Position numbers and translations under genes: made by a program
DNA from: Escherichia phage vB_EcoM-pEK20
Direction: 5' to 3' (one strand)
Length of the DNA stretch: 64,000 nt
Sequence record: MZ868638.1
Notes under the pieces: model-generated
What the model was told of the DNA's origin: nothing
Seen by the model: only the letters and a program-made list of their open reading frames with translations
The model's database searches: none
In this document: in pieces, positions 35,819 to 42,372 of the stretch
Position numbering within the stretch: position 1 is the stretch's first letter
How the letters are laid out: each line of letters opens with the position of its first letter

Positions 35819-36454
35819 ATGAAAACTACTCCTATTACTATCGCTATTGACGCAATCATAAAACAAGCTTCTTCTTTGGCCGCTATGGCCAAAGTAATTA
35901 GTCAAAACCCTGCTCGTTATAATGCTATTCTAGAAACTCTTCGACGCCCGGGACTTAGTAATTATGAAAGTCGTGTAATTATTACAGGTGTGGGTAAGAA
36001 TGCTAATATTGCAACTAAAGCTTCTGAGACATTTGCTTCACTTGGTATCCCGAGTATGTACTTGAACACCGGGCATTATTCTCACGGTGATGCAGGATTC
36101 ATTGCGCCTAATGATGTGTTGATTCATATTAGTCGTTCTGGTAAAACTGAAGAAATGATAGGCGTGGCTAAGCATCTTAAAATGATTCGTCCGAACGTCA
36201 AACAGATTCTGTTGCATTGTAACCCAGACATTCCACAAGAAAATGAAGCCCTTTTTGATTACTCTTTCTGTACAGGCATCGCAGTAGAGGTTGATGAGAA
36301 TTCTCTGGCTCCGACTATGTCCACTACATTGTTGTTAGCGCTTATCGATACGTTTGCTATCAACCTTTCGTCTGAACGTGGATTTACCTCTAATGACTTC
36401 CTTAAGTTCCACCCTGGCGGTGCACTAGGTGCCATGTTACGAGGCGAACAATGA
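35819..36454 (+). CDS. SIS-domain sugar-phosphate isomerase, KdsD/GutQ-like (D-arabinose-5-phosphate isomerase family)
   Basis: GVGKNANIATKASETFASLGIPS...HGDAGF...HISRSGKTEE...LAPTMSTT...RGFTSNDFLKFHPGGALG parallels the E. coli KdsD SIS domain motif for motif. Confidence 0.75.
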   Translation: MKTTPITIAIDAIIKQASSLAAMAKVISQNPARYNAILETLRRPGLSNYESRVIITGVGKNANIATKASETFASLGIPSMYLNTGHYSHGDAGFIAPNDVLIHISRSGKTEEMIGVAKHLKMIRPNVKQILLHCNPDIPQENEALFDYSFCTGIAVEVDENSLAPTMSTTLLLALIDTFAINLSSERGFTSNDFLKFHPGGALGAMLRGEQ

Positions 36455-36635
36455 AAGCAATAACAATAGGACTTTTACTATTGATGCTTGTCATGACTAT
36501 CTACTGGAGCTTAACGGCTCCAGTAATGATTCCGACTCTTATAATCGGATGGATTATGATTGGACTACAAGCAAAGTATGAATGCTTTAACTAGAATAGT
36601 GTACAATACTCCTACTTACCAATGAGGACCACAAC

Positions 36636-38324
36636 ATGAAAAAAGCTGTTATTCTTGGTGCTGGACTGGCAACTCGTTTGTATCCAATAACGCATCATAT
36701 TCCTAAGGTGCTTGTTAACTATAAACAAGACACTATTCTGAGCAATTTGTATACAATTTATTCTGACCTTGGCGCAGATGAAATTATTGTAGTAGTTCAT
36801 TCAAAATTTGCTGAAACTGTTCGAGCTTATTGTGAGCAAGAAGGGTTCAATGTGACTATTCGTACAGTTGATGAAGCGTATGGTTCCGCTTATGCTCTTG
36901 CTAAATTACACAAAGATTTAGACGGCCATAATGTAATTGTTAACTGGTGTGATATTATTCCCGATTTTGGTTCATGGTCTTGGAATGTTAACGCAATCTA
37001 TGTTAAGGGCGACGAATGTCGTTATAATTTCGACGGTGAAAATATCACTAACGTAGGTTCAACAGGTGGTAATGTTGTAGGAATTTATCAGTTCAAAGAC
37101 TGGGAATTCTATATGGGTTCTACTGATGAGGAAATTCATGAATACTGCAAAGGACGTGATTTCGTAGAATTCCTTTACGGCAGCGCATTCAATAAATCAG
37201 AGCTTATGAATATCATCGACCTTGGTGATATGCCTAAACTTGAAAAAGCTCATGAAGTTCGTGAACTTAATCGTAGTTTTAATGCAGTTGAAATTGGCGA
37301 AGAAACGGTAACAAAGATTGCTTTAACAGAACAGGGCGTTGCACTTCAAAAAGATGAAGTCAATTGGTATAAGAAAGTTAAATCAGATTCAGTTCCACGG
37401 ATTGTAAGTTATCATCCTGGCGGCCACTTTATTATGGAACGCATTAAAGGTAAGCCAGCATTTGAATATATTAAATCCAAATCGAGTCTTGCTCGTCCAC
37501 AAATTGTTGATGCAATTTTAGACGCACTGAAATTCAGCACAGACACTTATTTTGTAAGTCCTGAAACTGTTCGTCGTGATTTCACTAAAGAATTCTATAC
37601 GAAAGTTATTGATCGTTGTGAAAGTATTCAACCATTGATTGATTCATTTGGTAAAATCACACATGTGAACTACACTAAGATTGGGCGTCTGAAGCCAATG
37701 CTGAAACAAGCTTTAGAACACCTTATTCGTTATCATAACCGTTCTCAGGGACAGTACTCTGTTATTCATGGTGACCCGAACTTCAGTAATACTATGATTA
37801 CTGATAATGGTGAAGTCAAGTTTATCGACCCTCGTGGATATTTTGGTGAAACCAAGATTTATGGGCCAAAATTGTATGATGAAGCTAAAGTGCTTTATGC
37901 TGTTTCAGGTTATGATGAATTCAACGCTAATCCGACCTGGGGTCAGTTTACTATTGATGAAACAACTTGTAATGTGACTATTAACATCAATCCATTAGTT
38001 TACAAATATGGAAAGATGAGTTCGTTTAATGAGTATCATCATTTGGCTGTAGCAATTATCTGGATTGCATTAGGTGGTTATTTCAAGAATAATCCACTTA
38101 AAGCGGTAGCCGCATATTATAAAGGTATGGAACTTCTGACTAAGCAATTACGTAACATGGGCCGTGTACTTCAGGACGGCACTATTAGTTATGATGTAGC
38201 AGAACCTGTAACGGCTACTCTGATTACAAAAAATCCTGGTAAATGGGTACTAACTGATAAAGAAACTGGTGTTTCTTATCGTCCAATCGGTGGCGATATC
38301 ACTCATCAATGGGAACGAATCTAA
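36636..38324 (+). CDS. Bifunctional sugar-1-phosphate nucleotidyltransferase (N-term) / APH-like sugar kinase (C-term)
   Basis: N-term KAVILGAGLATRLYPIT...PKVL is the GxGTRLxPxT nucleotidyltransferase signature; C-term IHGDPNFSNTMI plus KFIDPRGYFG is the HGDxxxxN / D-x-G catalytic pair of APH/choline-kinase-fold kinases. Confidence 0.7.
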   Translation: MKKAVILGAGLATRLYPITHHIPKVLVNYKQDTILSNLYTIYSDLGADEIIVVVHSKFAETVRAYCEQEGFNVTIRTVDEAYGSAYALAKLHKDLDGHNVIVNWCDIIPDFGSWSWNVNAIYVKGDECRYNFDGENITNVGSTGGNVVGIYQFKDWEFYMGSTDEEIHEYCKGRDFVEFLYGSAFNKSELMNIIDLGDMPKLEKAHEVRELNRSFNAVEIGEETVTKIALTEQGVALQKDEVNWYKKVKSDSVPRIVSYHPGGHFIMERIKGKPAFEYIKSKSSLARPQIVDAILDALKFSTDTYFVSPETVRRDFTKEFYTKVIDRCESIQPLIDSFGKITHVNYTKIGRLKPMLKQALEHLIRYHNRSQGQYSVIHGDPNFSNTMITDNGEVKFIDPRGYFGETKIYGPKLYDEAKVLYAVSGYDEFNANPTWGQFTIDETTCNVTININPLVYKYGKMSSFNEYHHLAVAIIWIALGGYFKNNPLKAVAAYYKGMELLTKQLRNMGRVLQDGTISYDVAEPVTATLITKNPGKWVLTDKETGVSYRPIGGDITHQWERI

Positions 38325-38710
38325 TGCACCGTGTAGAAAACATGCTTAATCTTTGTTTTGATGTCGATGATTGTATAACAGAGTGGAATAACAACCGTGA
38401 TTACGTGAACTTCAAACCAGACGTCGAAATGGTGACTGCCATTAATGCCCTGTACGATGCAGGGCATACCATAACGCTTTACACTGCTCGCGGTATGAAG
38501 TCAGTCGGTCCTGGTCGTATAGCAATTGACATTCTCCCAAGTCTGATTCAGAACTTGGCAAACATTGGATTGAAGTACCATAATTTGCTAACACATAAAC
38601 CAGTATATGATTGGATTATCGACGACAAAGCTATGCGTCCTGACGAATTCAAAGCTCTTATGAATAAAGGCGAATTCGAAACATTTAAATCGTATAAACC
38701 GAATCTATAA
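38324..38710 (+). CDS. HAD-superfamily phosphatase, KdsC-like
   Basis: FDVDDCIT (KdsC FDVDGVLT), TLYTAR, IIDDKAM (motif IV DD); start 38324 overlaps upstream stop, alternative 38309. Confidence 0.6.
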   Translation: MHRVENMLNLCFDVDDCITEWNNNRDYVNFKPDVEMVTAINALYDAGHTITLYTARGMKSVGPGRIAIDILPSLIQNLANIGLKYHNLLTHKPVYDWIIDDKAMRPDEFKALMNKGEFETFKSYKPNL

Positions 38711-38766
38711 TAATTTAAGTAAGACCTGCAAAAACCATCGCGTCAATTAACGTGAGATGCAAAAAA

Positions 38767-39927
38767 ATGAATACTTTTAAAATCGGAACGAATTTTGATT
38801 TAGCTCTTCTTGATAAAATCGTAGAGCTCAATAAAACTTATCCTAATAGCTTGATAAACGAAGTATACGGCTCTACAAGAGAAATGGCTTTTGTAGCAGC
38901 CAGACCTGATTTTAGGCTTCCTGACGTTGACAAAAAGATGTTAGAAGATTACGTTAAACGTTGTAACGAATTAGGTATTTGCTTTAACTATACACTCAAC
39001 ACGATAAATCCTGGTTCAAAAAGAGAACTAGTTGAGTGGAAGAAGAAAGCTATTCAGGATTATGTTCAGTATCTTTGGTCAATAGGCGTATGGCGTATTA
39101 CTATCGCTAACCCTGTTGTTATGGAAATTGTTCGTGAAGTCAATAAAGACATTGAGATTGAAGTTTCAACAATTCTACATGTCGATGCTGTAACTCAAAT
39201 CAAATACTTGCATGACCAGTATAATATCAAAAAGGTCTGCTGTGGAATTCATAAGAACCGTTCGGTTTCTTTCCTGAAGCGTGCAGCAGAGTTTTGCAAT
39301 AAGAACAATATAATATTTGAAGTTCTTGTAAATGAGTTCTGTTCTAATGCTGGTAAAGGGTATACAACACATTGTAGCTATCGTGACTCTTGCTATATTT
39401 TCCATAGTACTGATGTTACCGCTGATGATGCTAAATCCTTAAATGGATATCCAATGCAACACTGCATTAAAGCTCGTGATACAGATCCATTTAACTGGTT
39501 GAGAACTCGTTTTGTTCGTCCTCAAGATTTGAAACTTTATAATGATATTGGTATCACTCAATTCAAAGTTTCAGGACGTACAGGTAGCACAGACTACATT
39601 TTGAAAGTTCTTGAAGCTTATGCTTCCGAAAAATTTGAAGGTAATTTGTTGGAATTGTGGAAGCCTTTAGAGACCATTTTCACTCTTGAAAATGAGACCG
39701 AGTTTTCACATACGGTAAATATTGAAACCTCTTTGTTAGATGGCTTTTTAGAAAAAAGGTGGTTCAGACATCCAGATTTCGATTGTGCTAATGAAATCTG
39801 TGGGACGACGTGTACATATTGTGAAAGATATTATAAACGTCAATTATCTAAAAATGGGTTATCAGAAAACTCTATATCTATTATTGATATAACTAACTCT
39901 GACGACGCTTTGAGGTACCCAGAATGA
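38767..39927 (+). CDS. Cys-rich enzyme of unknown family (possible Fe-S/metal-binding)
   Basis: Central Cys cluster KVCCGIH...EFCNKNN...EFCSNAGKGYTTHCSYRDSCY and C-terminal CANEICGTTCTYCERYY; fold not assignable by eye. Confidence 0.4.
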   Translation: MNTFKIGTNFDLALLDKIVELNKTYPNSLINEVYGSTREMAFVAARPDFRLPDVDKKMLEDYVKRCNELGICFNYTLNTINPGSKRELVEWKKKAIQDYVQYLWSIGVWRITIANPVVMEIVREVNKDIEIEVSTILHVDAVTQIKYLHDQYNIKKVCCGIHKNRSVSFLKRAAEFCNKNNIIFEVLVNEFCSNAGKGYTTHCSYRDSCYIFHSTDVTADDAKSLNGYPMQHCIKARDTDPFNWLRTRFVRPQDLKLYNDIGITQFKVSGRTGSTDYILKVLEAYASEKFEGNLLELWKPLETIFTLENETEFSHTVNIETSLLDGFLEKRWFRHPDFDCANEICGTTCTYCERYYKRQLSKNGLSENSISIIDITNSDDALRYPE

Positions 39928-40206
39928 TTTCTAGAAAAACTTTTAACCACCAACTTAATGAAGAGATTTTGACTATGAAAATTAACAGCAACGAACAAAT
40001 TCTTAAAAAGGCCCTTATGGGCCTGTTTGAAACCAAAGCGGCTTAAAGTGATTAAAGAACCTGTTCAATTGTAATACTACGCTGATGCATTTCTTCATAG
40101 TGTCCTTGGAAGTATCGATGCCGAAGCTCTACGTTATATCAACATCGCTAAGAAATTCAAATAAGCTTTATGAATTGAGTATATAATAAATTGTATTGAG
40201 GTAAAC

Positions 40207-40923
40207 ATGGGAAAACATAACACAATGAAATATATTAAAGCCGCAGATTTTCAATCCGCATTTAAAGCTGTCAATCGTGAAATTTTAGAAAACCCGGAAT
40301 TCGTAACTGATTCTCGTATTGGACGTTGTAATGAAATTGGGTCTATGACAGTAGTTGTTGACACTCCATCATCATTCAAAATGACCGACCCACGTATTAA
40401 CCGCATCTCTTATGAATATGCTGAAGACTTCTGGAAGTTTATGGTTTCTGGTGGTACTGATGCAGAAGAAGCATTTAAGGCATATCCTAACGTTGCTAAA
40501 TTTATTTCTAAACCTAAATCAGACGCTTTGCCTGCAAACTTCAACACTTTCTACGGTCCACGAATTGCGGCCCAATTACCAGCTCTTTTAAAAGAACTTA
40601 AAGAGAAGCCTAACTCTCGAAGAGTTGTGTTTCAAATTCTTGAAAGTTCTGATCAGGCTTTGCTTGATTCGGACGAAACGCTTGAATATCCATGTACTGA
40701 CTCAGTGACTTATTATATTCGTGATGGTAAGCTTTATACCCACTGCCATATGCGTTCTCAGAACTGTGCTGTTGTTATGCAGTTGGATTTTTATCTCCAA
40801 GGAAAATTACTTCATTATATCGCTAACGAATGTGGTGTAGAAGTTGGTGATTATACTCATACCATGGTAAGTGCCCATGTGTTTGAACGTGATTTTGATT
40901 ATGTTAAAGGATTCCTTGACTAA
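40207..40923 (+). CDS. 42: Thymidylate-synthase-fold pyrimidine hydroxymethylase (gp42-like, divergent)
   Basis: KPNSRRVVFQIL (TS NPxSRR), YPCTDSV (nucleophile PC), MRSQNCAVVMQLD (TS RSxD...N/D specificity position is Asp); position equals T4 gene 42. Confidence 0.65.
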   Translation: MGKHNTMKYIKAADFQSAFKAVNREILENPEFVTDSRIGRCNEIGSMTVVVDTPSSFKMTDPRINRISYEYAEDFWKFMVSGGTDAEEAFKAYPNVAKFISKPKSDALPANFNTFYGPRIAAQLPALLKELKEKPNSRRVVFQILESSDQALLDSDETLEYPCTDSVTYYIRDGKLYTHCHMRSQNCAVVMQLDFYLQGKLLHYIANECGVEVGDYTHTMVSAHVFERDFDYVKGFLD

Positions 40924-41822
40924 TGGCTATTTTCCGCGTACCTATCTTGAGTATGCGGTCTTATGAAACTGGACAGTATGCTATCCTTAAGGATGGCAAC
41001 TTCCAACTTCATTTGCACCGTGCTAATCCAGGTGATGTGATTACATATCCACGTAATGCATCTGATATTAAAGAATGTGAACGTCTTTTCCCAGAATTTA
41101 AGTTTGTTCCATTATGGTATAAAGATAACGCGTATAACACTCGTAAATATTTCTGGTCTGAAAATGAATTTGTGGTTGATTCATTAATTGCTTATTATGA
41201 TTGTGATTTTCTAATAACAGATATCACTGGATATGATGGTGCTTTTGATGTAGAATTCAATTTCAATATCACCGCAGACCCTAATAAACCGCGTTTTTAT
41301 ATTGACGAATTCTTAAAAACCGACATGTTGTCGGTTAATCGTTCACTTCAAACTACTGTGTTGAATGAACGTCAAAAGGAAGTGCTGGTTAACGCTGGTG
41401 CGGATGGTAATAAGATTATCGTAACGCAGAAAGTTATACGTCCTTCCATCATGCAGCGTCTTGTAGGTGATTTGGCTCCTATTCATCTAGATGGTATTTT
41501 TCATCCATTTCGAATTAGTGACCCGTGCTATCGTTTTGAACAAGTGGTTGAATGTGCAATTCAATTAGGCCAACCGCTTTATATAACCGATCCAAATAAT
41601 AGCTTCGACAGAAATAAGTATCCTGAAGAAGCGCTGATTCGAATTTTTAAACCAACTAAAACCGAGTACTATCAAATTCTTAAAGGACGTCCAAAGATTC
41701 AATATTTCGAAAATCCTGAAGAAGTATTCCATCCAGGTCTTGGTGAGTTCATCTACTTTAATGCTTTAATTTCTTCGCCGTATAATATACCTAAATACGA
41801 AGATGTCGTAATCGAGGAATAA
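40923..41822 (+). CDS. Hypothetical protein at the T4 beta-gt position
   Basis: 299 aa; no motif I can assign. Confidence 0.35.
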   Translation: MAIFRVPILSMRSYETGQYAILKDGNFQLHLHRANPGDVITYPRNASDIKECERLFPEFKFVPLWYKDNAYNTRKYFWSENEFVVDSLIAYYDCDFLITDITGYDGAFDVEFNFNITADPNKPRFYIDEFLKTDMLSVNRSLQTTVLNERQKEVLVNAGADGNKIIVTQKVIRPSIMQRLVGDLAPIHLDGIFHPFRISDPCYRFEQVVECAIQLGQPLYITDPNNSFDRNKYPEEALIRIFKPTKTEYYQILKGRPKIQYFENPEEVFHPGLGEFIYFNALISSPYNIPKYEDVVIEE

Positions 41823-41823
41823 A

Positions 41824-42372
41824 ATGGCTAAAATTATTTTAGTAGATGGCCCGGATAATGCTGGTAAAACAACTTTCATTAATGACATAATGGAAATTAG
41901 TGAAAGATATGTAAAGATTGATTTCCCTAAACGAACGGTTGATGGACGTTTCGATGTTAAGTCTCGAAATGAAGTTGGCTGTTTCGAAACGATGCTGAAT
42001 TATTTAGACCCTACTAAGATTTATCTGTTAGATCGTGGATATATTAGTAACTGGGTTTACGGACGTATTCGACAAGATGCGGACTCGGTTCTTGACGTTT
42101 ATGAACAGGATTATGTTCGTCTTTGCCAAAACCATGATGTGTTCACAATTATTTTAACACGTAACGAAATGACTGAAAGTTTTGAAGACGACCTTATTAC
42201 TTTGTCTTCATTCGGTTTTAATACAGTAATTTCATATTTTGAAGAGTTTGCAATCCATAACGAAATCCAAACGTATCAATTACTTAATCATGATGGTGCT
42301 AACAAAGTTATAGGATTTAATGCAAGCGAACGTAATAATTTGATTACAGAAATTATCAAATGGGCTCGTTAA
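41824..42372 (+). CDS. Tmk-like P-loop nucleoside monophosphate kinase
   Basis: IILVDGPDNAGKTT Walker A and LLDRGYISNWVYG resemble thymidylate kinase DRY motif region. Confidence 0.45.
   Translation: MAKIILVDGPDNAGKTTFINDIMEISERYVKIDFPKRTVDGRFDVKSRNEVGCFETMLNYLDPTKIYLLDRGYISNWVYGRIRQDADSVLDVYEQDYVRLCQNHDVFTIILTRNEMTESFEDDLITLSSFGFNTVISYFEEFAIHNEIQTYQLLNHDGANKVIGFNASERNNLITEIIKWAR

What the first reader, a model, noticed from the sequence alone, without database searches (positions are those of the whole stretch)
36636..38324. Fusion of a nucleotidyltransferase with a protein-kinase-like sugar kinase
One 562-aa ORF joins an N-terminal GxGTRLxPxT sugar-1-P nucleotidyltransferase domain to a C-terminal domain with the HGDxxxxN catalytic loop and downstream D-x-G typical of APH/choline-kinase-fold kinases. 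In bacteria the analogous AmgK (kinase) and MurU (nucleotidyltransferase) are separate proteins. A single-polypeptide kinase plus pyrophosphorylase is known for fucose/arabinose salvage (FKP-type), but there the kinase is GHMP-fold. This domain combination is unusual and would channel a free sugar directly to an NDP-sugar.
Basis: partly seen in the sequence, partly recalled or inferred. Interest (0 to 1): 0.75.

Follow-up and report, generated by a model that had tools for sequence, protein, structure and literature searches.

The report
Known phage UDP-arabinose synthesis enzyme (AfhE)
This gene is the RB69-type phage enzyme AfhE, a two-domain kinase plus uridylyltransferase already reported to help make the UDP-arabinose that decorates phage DNA, so the fusion is real but already explained.

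Summary

It is not new. The window is a Mosigvirus (RB69-like coliphage). The protein is 559/562 identical to the phage HY126 homologue and about 97% identical to RB69 ORF053c+052c. A 2026 NAR paper, citing He et al. [quoted passage not shown]

The reported pathway is:
- ribulose-5-P to arabinose-5-P (SIS isomerase, adjacent gene)
- to arabinose-1,5-bisphosphate (this kinase domain)
- to arabinose-1-P (HAD phosphatase AfhF, next gene, start overlapping this stop)
- to UDP-arabinofuranose (this N-terminal domain), which feeds arabinosylation of 5-hydroxycytosine in phage DNA.

The two domains therefore catalyse non-consecutive steps, as in HldE of the ADP-heptose pathway. They do not channel a free sugar.

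The fusion is also common. About 737 clusters at 50% identity match the two-domain profile, and at least 573 bacterial or archaeal genome loci encode relatives, often next to an SIS isomerase.

Side lead: the neighbouring U32-family gene, flanked by chorismate mutase in related phages, may be an oxygen-independent cytosine hydroxylase.

The parts
35819..36454 (+). SIS-domain D-arabinose-5-phosphate isomerase (RB69 gp55 equivalent); makes arabinose-5-P from ribulose-5-P
   Evidence: Pfam SIS 41.9 bits. NCBIfam KpsF/GutQ E 2e-32 and KdsD E 7e-31. HY126 orthologue annotated D-arabinose-5-phosphate isomerase. Role as given in PMC13326640.
36451..36594 (+). 47-aa hydrophobic small ORF whose start overlaps the isomerase stop (ATGA); function unknown
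   Evidence: Sequence read directly. An ORF at the same position is annotated in HY126. In Klebsiella phage KLB31 it is annotated 'contains transmembrane domain'. No Pfam family.
36636..37259 (+). AfhE N-terminal domain (residues 1-208): sugar-1-phosphate nucleotidyltransferase, reported UDP-D-arabinose pyrophosphorylase
37260..38165 (+). AfhE C-terminal domain (residues ~209-510): APH/choline-kinase-fold kinase, reported D-arabinose-5-phosphate 1-kinase
38166..38324 (+). About 52-residue C-terminal tail (residues 511-562) plus stop; absent from most cellular relatives
   Evidence: Alignment A1: tail present in the phage-type homologues, missing from P0078 onward. Most genome loci match only to residue ~498-508. 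A 58-aa stand-alone BFVD protein matches with 40% identity over 53 alignment columns; that this falls on the tail is inferred, since one search gives no query coordinates.
38324..38710 (+). HAD-like phosphatase (AfhF / RB69 gp51 equivalent); reported to convert arabinose-1,5-bisphosphate to arabinose-1-phosphate
   Evidence: ATG overlaps the AfhE stop (TAATG). NCBIfam TIGR01689 capsule-biosynthesis phosphatase E 4.6e-13, below its cut-off. 99% identical to the HY126 orthologue. Role from PMC13326640.
38752..39927 (+). Peptidase-U32-family Fe-S protein (RB69 gp50 equivalent); role in the cluster not established; proposed here as an O2-independent hydroxylase
   Evidence: Pfam Peptidase_U32 42.2 bits. 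Cys positions align with those of E. coli RlhA, TrhP and UbiU. At least 80% identical in all 221 phage records that hold it.
40207..40923 (+). Thymidylate-synthase-like 5-hydroxy-dCMP synthase (RB69 gp48 equivalent)
   Evidence: Pfam Thymidylat_synt 56.9 bits. Function shown for RB69 gp48 in PMC13326640.
40923..41822 (+). Putative DNA arabinosyltransferase 1 (RB69 gp46:47 equivalent)
   Evidence: Position and synteny with the RB69 and HY126 clusters. No Pfam or NCBIfam hit here.
41824..42372 (+). Putative nucleotide kinase (RB69 gp45 equivalent)
   Evidence: Synteny. Annotated thymidylate kinase in related phages.

Best explanation
The ORF is the Mosigvirus orthologue of phage HY126 AfhE (RB69 gp52:53), a bifunctional enzyme of the phage UDP-D-arabinofuranose pathway.

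Reported pathway (shown elsewhere, inferred here by near-identity):
1. The adjacent SIS isomerase converts host ribulose-5-P to D-arabinose-5-P.
2. The C-terminal APH/ChoK-fold domain of this protein uses ATP to phosphorylate C1, giving arabinose-1,5-bisphosphate.
3. The HAD phosphatase encoded by the next, translationally coupled gene removes the 5-phosphate.
4. The N-terminal nucleotidyltransferase domain condenses arabinose-1-P with UTP to give UDP-D-arabinofuranose.
5. Phage glycosyltransferases transfer the arabinose onto 5-hydroxycytosine in phage DNA.

Shown here: the fold of both domains, conservation of catalytic residues, near-identity to the HY126 protein, and conserved gene order. 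Taken from the literature: substrates, products and the order of steps.
For: - Identity: 559/562 residues identical to HY126 XAN60479.1. 96.8% to RB69 ORF053c+052c (H79). BFVD top hits are those two RB69 ORFs.
[quoted passage not shown] It states that AfhF is a Mg-dependent phosphatase acting on the bisphosphate. It equates AfhE with RB69 gp52:53.
- Residues: invariant catalytic residues in both domains across 95 homologues.
- Gene order: SIS isomerase, then this gene, then the HAD phosphatase. This order is kept in Mosigvirus (window), HY126, Kanagawavirus KLB31 and Lazarusvirus Apostate.
- Coupling: TAATG stop/start overlap with the phosphatase gene.
- Product: Mosigvirus DNA carries mono- and di-arabosylated 5-hydroxycytosine (PMC13390438).
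- Inference: four invariant basic residues in the kinase domain (R213, R327, R400, K418) fit an anionic sugar-phosphate substrate.
Against: - The primary biochemical paper (He et al. 2026, Nat Chem Biol) could not be read here. The activities are therefore second-hand, and the equation AfhE = XAN60479.1 is inferred from architecture and from the RB69 gp52:53 equivalence.
- Table 1 of PMC13326640 contradicts that paper's own text. It lists the RB69 kinase domain as 'Phosphorylates Ara to Araf1p' and gp51 as 'dephosphorylates Araf5p to Ara'.
- PMC13390438 (June 2026) still says the full pathway is not characterised.
- This sequence alone is below the Pfam APH gathering score.
- Nothing here tests nucleotide specificity.
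Confidence: 0.88

Rival explanations
1. Free-sugar route. The HAD phosphatase first dephosphorylates arabinose-5-P to free D-arabinose. The kinase domain then makes arabinose-1-P and the N-terminal domain immediately uridylylates it. The fusion would then catalyse two consecutive steps, like AmgK plus MurU.
For: Table 1 of PMC13326640 annotates RB69 gp51 as 'dephosphorylates Araf5p to Ara' and the kinase domain as 'Phosphorylates Ara to Araf1p'. The closest kinase folds (choline kinase, fructosamine kinase, APH) mostly act on unphosphorylated substrates.
Against: [quoted passage not shown] That paper reports a structural match of the phosphatase homologues to a heptose-1,7-bisphosphate 7-phosphatase. 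The kinase domain has invariant Arg and Lys residues.
Confidence: 0.08
2. A LicA/LicC-type enzyme that activates a phospho-alcohol or another sugar with a different nucleotide (CDP, GDP or dTDP product), unrelated to DNA arabinosylation.
Against: Identity to those proteins is only 12-21%. All NCBIfam equivalog scores are far below their cut-offs. The gene always sits between an arabinose-5-P isomerase and a HAD phosphatase, inside the 5-hydroxycytosine arabinosylation cluster. The reported product is UDP-arabinose.
Confidence: 0.03
3. A decayed or split gene without function, as the RB69 reference annotation (two ORFs, 052c and 053c) might suggest.
For: The RB69 GenBank record splits it in two.
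Against: The frame is intact here and in 363 of 373 phage records at 80% coverage or more. Catalytic residues are invariant. PMC13326640 attributes the RB69 split to a sequencing error.
Confidence: 0.01

Closest known systems
AfhE of Escherichia phage HY126 (= RB69 gp52:53, Stenotrophomonas phage DLP3 gp82)
   Same: Same length (562 aa), 99.5% identical, same two domains and same neighbours: SIS isomerase upstream, HAD phosphatase AfhF downstream, then the 5-hydroxy-dCMP synthase and glycosyltransferase.
   Different: Three substitutions (G392C, T448S, T516S), none at a conserved position.
HldE with GmhA and GmhB (ADP-L-glycero-beta-D-manno-heptose pathway; own knowledge of the established pathway)
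   Same: Same logic. A SIS isomerase makes a sugar phosphate, an anomeric kinase makes a bisphosphate, a HAD phosphatase removes the distal phosphate, and a nucleotidyltransferase activates the sugar. The kinase and the transferase are fused in one protein although their steps are not consecutive. The N-terminal-domain profile's best PDB match is HddC of the GDP-heptose branch.
   Different: HldE's kinase has a ribokinase/PfkB fold and its transferase a cytidylyltransferase fold. Here the kinase is APH/ChoK-fold and the transferase RmlA/LicC-fold. The substrate is a pentose and the nucleotide is UTP.
AmgK / MurU (MurNAc recycling)
   Different: They are separate proteins acting consecutively on a free sugar. 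The NCBIfam MurU score here is 24.8 bits against a cut-off of 250, so this protein is not a member.
LicA / LicC (choline kinase and CTP:phosphocholine cytidylyltransferase; a fused LicCA is known in Treponema denticola, from own knowledge and not verified here)
   Different: The substrate is choline and the product CDP-choline, and the steps are consecutive. Identity is 12-21% only.
FKP-type fucokinase / GDP-fucose pyrophosphorylase
   Same: One polypeptide combining a kinase and a pyrophosphorylase for sugar activation.
   Different: The kinase is GHMP-fold and acts on a free sugar. No GHMP signal appears here.

Membership tests
AfhE (phage D-arabinose-5-P kinase / UDP-D-arabinose pyrophosphorylase) | Close sequence identity to the characterised HY126 protein over its full length | tested here: met
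   559/562 identical, no gaps. That XAN60479.1 is the protein named AfhE is inferred from its equivalence to RB69 gp52:53.
AfhE (phage D-arabinose-5-P kinase / UDP-D-arabinose pyrophosphorylase) | N-terminal nucleotidyltransferase domain plus C-terminal kinase domain in one chain | tested here: met
AfhE (phage D-arabinose-5-P kinase / UDP-D-arabinose pyrophosphorylase) | Lies between an arabinose-5-P isomerase and the AfhF HAD phosphatase, in the 5-hydroxycytosine arabinosylation cluster | tested here: met
AfhE (phage D-arabinose-5-P kinase / UDP-D-arabinose pyrophosphorylase) | ATP-dependent 1-phosphorylation of arabinose-5-P and UTP-dependent formation of UDP-arabinose | not testable with these tools
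   Known only through PMC13326640's account of He et al. 2026.
Sugar-1-phosphate nucleotidyltransferase (Pfam PF00483, RmlA/GlmU/LicC fold) | Profile score above the gathering threshold | tested here: met
   38.9 bits against 21.2.
Sugar-1-phosphate nucleotidyltransferase (Pfam PF00483, RmlA/GlmU/LicC fold) | G-x-G-T-R-x(n)-P-K signature and two metal-binding Asp | tested here: met
   G8-A-G-L-A-T-R14...P23-K24 (one Gly replaced by Ala). D106 invariant and D198 at least 90% conserved.
Sugar-1-phosphate nucleotidyltransferase (Pfam PF00483, RmlA/GlmU/LicC fold) | Rossmann-like nucleotidyltransferase fold | tested here: met
APH / choline-kinase-like kinases (protein-kinase-like superfamily) | Pfam APH (PF01636) score above the gathering threshold | tested here: not met
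   17.2 bits against 23.2 for this sequence. However, 13 of 21 homologues hit APH, best E 2.2e-10.
APH / choline-kinase-like kinases (protein-kinase-like superfamily) | Bilobal kinase fold | tested here: met
APH / choline-kinase-like kinases (protein-kinase-like superfamily) | Catalytic loop H-G-D-x4-N, downstream metal-binding Asp, N-lobe Lys and Glu | tested here: met
   H378, G379, D380, N385, D398, K227 and E241 are invariant in 95 sequences. The assignment of K227 and E241 to the N-lobe pair is by position, not by superposition.
MurU (NCBIfam NF045761) | Equivalog score above cut-off | tested here: not met
   24.8 bits against 250.
FKP (GHMP-kinase fusion) | GHMP kinase domain | tested here: not met
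   No GHMP family in the Pfam or NCBIfam scans. The kinase fold is APH-like.
HldE (bifunctional heptose kinase / adenylyltransferase) | Ribokinase-fold kinase plus cytidylyltransferase-fold domain | tested here: not met
   Neither family appears. The resemblance is in pathway logic only.

The most novel reading that the evidence does not exclude
The phage enzyme may be one branch of a large, essentially unstudied cellular family. Full-length relatives (26-30% identity) occur in at least 573 bacterial and archaeal species genomes. These include megabase-scale chromosomal contigs of Coprothermobacteraceae, Gastranaerophilales, Akkermansia, Elusimicrobia, CPR bacteria and archaea. In 31 of 78 inspected loci they lie next to a KpsF-like isomerase. 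In giant-virus-like or eukaryotic contigs the HAD, SIS, nucleotidyltransferase and kinase units are fused into one ~900-aa protein. If these all make NDP-D-arabinofuranose, a nucleotide-sugar route to D-arabinofuranose would be widespread in cells and giant viruses. That route would be distinct from the decaprenyl-phosphate route of actinobacteria, and the phage module would be a capture from it.
Probability: 0.35. Interest if true: 0.55.

Novelty: already known. Interest (0 to 1): 0.15.

Why it matters
The enzyme supplies the activated arabinose that RB69-like phages attach to 5-hydroxycytosine. Modifications of this kind are reported to help phages evade host restriction endonucleases (PMC13326640 abstract), so it bears on phage-host arms races and on choosing or engineering therapeutic phages. 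That role has already been published for a 99.5% identical protein, so this window adds another orthologue rather than a discovery. What remains open lies beside the finding: the cellular relatives of the fusion, and the function of the neighbouring U32-family gene.

Tried and rejected
- Single-sequence AlphaFold gave pLDDT 33.8 and was discarded. The 95-sequence alignment was needed.
- The afdb50 library was unavailable.
- PDB holds no close sequence relative, so no AfhE structure is in that copy.
- A C-terminal-domain-only profile against PDB sequences gave only weak hits (E about 0.008), all to kinase-like chains.
- He et al. 2026 and Mahler et al. 2025 are not in the paper library.
- A text search for 'licCA' returned only noise, so the LicCA precedent rests on memory.
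- A chorismate mutase was looked for in the window and not found (tblastn; the 40-aa ORF 39924..40046 has no family).
- Choline-type and GlmU-type assignments seen in deposited annotations were considered and rejected on context and score.

Full report
**1. What is there**

Window 36636..38324 (+) is a single ATG-started ORF of 562 codons plus stop. A GAGGA ribosome-binding site lies 8 nt upstream. The whole window is about 37% G+C with almost all genes on one strand.

Megablast of the ORF finds 170 phage records, nearly all RB69-like coliphages (Mosigvirus). The gene lies in the T4-type replication region between DNA polymerase gp43 and UvsX.

**2. Checking the observation**

Motifs:
- The N-terminal motif reads G8-A-G-L-A-T-R14-L-Y-P-I-T19...P23-K24. 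This is the nucleotidyltransferase signature with one Gly replaced by Ala.
- The kinase catalytic loop H378-G-D-P-N-F-S-N385 is exactly HGDxxxxN.
- The conserved downstream Asp is D398 in I-D-P-R-G. The literal D-x-G at 390-392 is not conserved.

Profile searches:
- Pfam scores NTP_transferase above threshold (38.9 against 21.2 bits).
- The kinase families APH, fructosamine kinase and EcKL score only below threshold.
- The kinase assignment is nevertheless carried by the family. Thirteen of 21 homologues hit Pfam APH, best E 2.2e-10.
- A profile of 95 homologues matches the whole HddC nucleotidyltransferase chain at E 1.9e-18.

Structure:
- A single-sequence model failed (pLDDT 33.8). The model built on the 95-sequence alignment is very confident (pLDDT 94.5, pTM 0.91).

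Invariant residues across the 95 sequences:
- Nucleotidyltransferase domain: D106, R129, G149, G197.
- Kinase domain: K227, E241, H378, G379, D380, N385, D398.

**3. What it is**

The protein is 559/562 identical to XAN60479.1 of Escherichia phage HY126. It is 96.8% identical to RB69 ORF053c plus ORF052c, which the RB69 record splits in two (H79).

Prior literature:
- Thomas et al. 2018 (PMC6024577) already singled out RB69 'ORF53_52c' and the neighbouring SIS protein as candidates for UDP-arabinose synthesis.
- The 2026 NAR paper PMC13326640 cites He et al. 2026 (Nat Chem Biol). [quoted passage not shown]
- It states that AfhF is a Mg-dependent HAD phosphatase converting arabinose-1,5-bisphosphate to arabinose-1-phosphate.
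- It states that RB69 gp52:53 (split by a sequencing error) and DLP3 gp82 are the equivalents.
- Mosigvirus DNA carries arabinosylated 5-hydroxycytosine (PMC13390438).

**4. Context in the window**

Gene order in the window:
- SIS arabinose-5-P isomerase, 35819..36454 (KpsF/GutQ E 2e-32).
- A 47-aa hydrophobic ORF, 36451..36594.
- AfhE, 36636..38324.
- HAD phosphatase, 38324..38710. Its ATG overlaps the AfhE stop as TAATG.
- U32-family protein, 38752..39927.
- Thymidylate-synthase-like 5-hydroxy-dCMP synthase, 40207..40923.
- Putative arabinosyltransferase, 40923..41822.
- Nucleotide kinase, 41824..42372.
- UvsX.

The isomerase, AfhE and phosphatase order is kept in HY126, Kanagawavirus KLB31, Lazarusvirus Apostate and a 167-kb phage contig binned as a 'bacterium' (L010).

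**5. How it works**

The best-supported mechanism is: ribulose-5-P to arabinose-5-P (isomerase), then arabinose-1,5-bisphosphate (this kinase domain), then arabinose-1-P (AfhF), then UDP-D-arabinofuranose (this N-terminal domain). The product goes to DNA arabinosyltransferases.

I show the folds, the residues, the identity and the synteny. The chemistry is taken from the literature.

The two domains catalyse the second and fourth steps, not consecutive ones. This is the logic of the ADP-heptose pathway (GmhA, HldE kinase, GmhB, HldE transferase; established knowledge), built from different folds.

The main rival is a free-arabinose route in which the phosphatase acts first. It survives only because Table 1 of PMC13326640 words it that way, in conflict with the paper's own text. 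I give it about 8%.

**6. Is the fusion unusual?**

No.
- An exhaustive profile search finds 737 cluster representatives at E<=1e-30. All 150 best match across profile positions ~1-510 in one stretch.
- A scan of one genome per bacterial or archaeal species finds at least 573 loci encoding relatives. The 80 best were kept, and nearly all of them cover residues ~1-505 at 26-30% identity.
- Some of those lie on large chromosomal contigs (1.0 Mb Coprothermobacteraceae, 548 kb and 415 kb Gastranaerophilales).
- In 31 of 78 kept cellular loci a KpsF-like SIS gene lies within 4 kb.
- Some relatives carry the HAD and SIS units in the same polypeptide, giving ~890-1010 aa.

The claims of rarity and of direct channelling of a free sugar are not supported.

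**7. Verdict**

This is an already known enzyme. The window adds an orthologue with three neutral substitutions. Interest is low.

**8. Side observation worth recording: the U32 gene**

The U32-family gene next to the cluster (38752..39927) is annotated in PMC13326640 only as 'sugar or heterocycle reductase'. That paper does not mention U32, RlhA or prephenate.

What is known of U32 proteins:
- RlhA is required for, and appears directly involved in, formation of 5-hydroxycytidine in 23S rRNA. That formation needs Fe-S clusters and prephenate (PMC5727448).
[quoted passage not shown] E. coli TrhP is annotated as the tRNA wobble-base hydroxylation protein, and PMC6599085 describes dual pathways of tRNA hydroxylation (title and abstract only).

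What the phage protein shows:
- It keeps the Cys positions that align with RlhA, TrhP and UbiU. It also has a C-terminal C-x4-C-x3-C-x2-C cluster.
- It is at least 80% identical in all 221 phage records that carry it. AfhE, by contrast, falls to 43%.
- Its hosts are enterobacteria and Shewanella. Acinetobacter accounts for 57 records with AfhE homologues but is not among the ten most frequent host names for U32. The one Acinetobacter cluster inspected has no U32 gene.
- In 48 phage records of other genera a type II chorismate mutase maps to the same place. Wherever the record is annotated there, the thymidylate-synthase-like hydroxylase gene or the U32 gene lies under or beside the match (Pfam CM_2 38.5 bits).
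- One metagenomic contig has the order nucleotidyltransferase/kinase, HAD, SIS, a DAHP-synthase/chorismate-mutase fusion, then U32.

The thymidylate-synthase-like hydroxylase uses O2. I therefore propose that the U32 protein is an O2-independent, prephenate-dependent route to 5-hydroxycytosine for anaerobic hosts. I found no paper in the library making this link, but I could not read He 2026 or Mahler 2025.

Noticed in passing
window 38752-39927 (+); related loci L008:5983-7394, L013:6757-8930: The U32-family Fe-S protein beside the arabinose genes may be an O2-independent, prephenate-dependent cytosine-5 hydroxylase. U32 proteins linked to hydroxylation include RlhA (5-hydroxycytidine in rRNA), TrhP and UbiU/V. 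In 48 related phage records a chorismate mutase, the prephenate-forming enzyme, maps between or beside the U32 gene and the O2-dependent TS-like hydroxylase gene. One contig has a DAHP-synthase/chorismate-mutase fusion next to U32. The Acinetobacter phage cluster inspected has no U32 gene, and Acinetobacter is not among the frequent U32 host names.. No held paper makes this link.
   Followed up: partly
window 39928-40206: Other genera carry the 79-aa chorismate mutase at this position. This Mosigvirus instead has a 280-nt stretch with only a 40-aa ORF (39924..40046) of no known family. There is no tblastn trace of the mutase.
   Followed up: yes
window 36451-36594 (+): A 47-aa strongly hydrophobic ORF sits between the isomerase and AfhE, its start overlapping the isomerase stop (ATGA). 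An ORF at the same position is annotated in HY126. In Klebsiella phage KLB31 it is annotated as transmembrane. A membrane peptide inside a nucleotide-sugar cluster is unexplained.
   Followed up: no
window 38166-38321 (AfhE residues 511-562): The phage-type proteins carry a conserved tail of about 52 residues (T-K-x-P-x-K-W-x-L-x-D-x-E-T-G...W) that most cellular relatives lack. A 58-aa stand-alone phage protein (BFVD A0A6J5KUX0) matches with 40% identity over 53 alignment columns; that this is the tail is inferred, since no query coordinates were returned. Its role is unknown.
   Followed up: partly
proteins P0080, P0082, P0086, P0087, P0089, P0093, P0094; loci L002, L005: Relatives of about 890-955 aa fuse HAD, SIS, nucleotidyltransferase and kinase into one chain, which is the whole three-gene phage pathway. 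P0082 comes from a eukaryote transcriptome. The contigs of P0080 and P0093 have XRN exonuclease, SNF2 helicase, Ulp1-type peptidase and Glyco_transf_25 neighbours, which suggests giant viruses or eukaryotes.
   Followed up: partly
loci L012-L089 (bacterial and archaeal genomes): Full-length relatives of the fusion (26-30% identity) are widespread in gut and environmental bacteria and in archaea. In 31 of 78 loci they lie within 4 kb of a KpsF-like isomerase. This hints at an uncharacterised cellular NDP-arabinose-type pathway.
   Followed up: partly
loci L010, L011, L013: Probable phage DNA filed under cellular genomes. (a) A 167-kb contig of a 'bacterium isolate' carries the isomerase, AfhE, phosphatase, TS-like hydroxylase, glycosyltransferase and kinase genes of the cluster (no U32 match). 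(b) A 385-bp contig of the Dyella japonica DSM 16301 RefSeq assembly is 97% identical at the protein level to this coliphage gene. (c) A 'Gastranaerophilaceae' MAG contig carries the module together with a Tad3 anti-Thoeris gene.
   Followed up: no
RB69 record AY303349.1 28097-29780 (hit H79): The RB69 reference splits this gene into ORF053c (221 aa) and ORF052c (346 aa). The window, HY126 and 363 other records have it intact, which agrees with the sequencing-error explanation in PMC13326640.
   Followed up: yes
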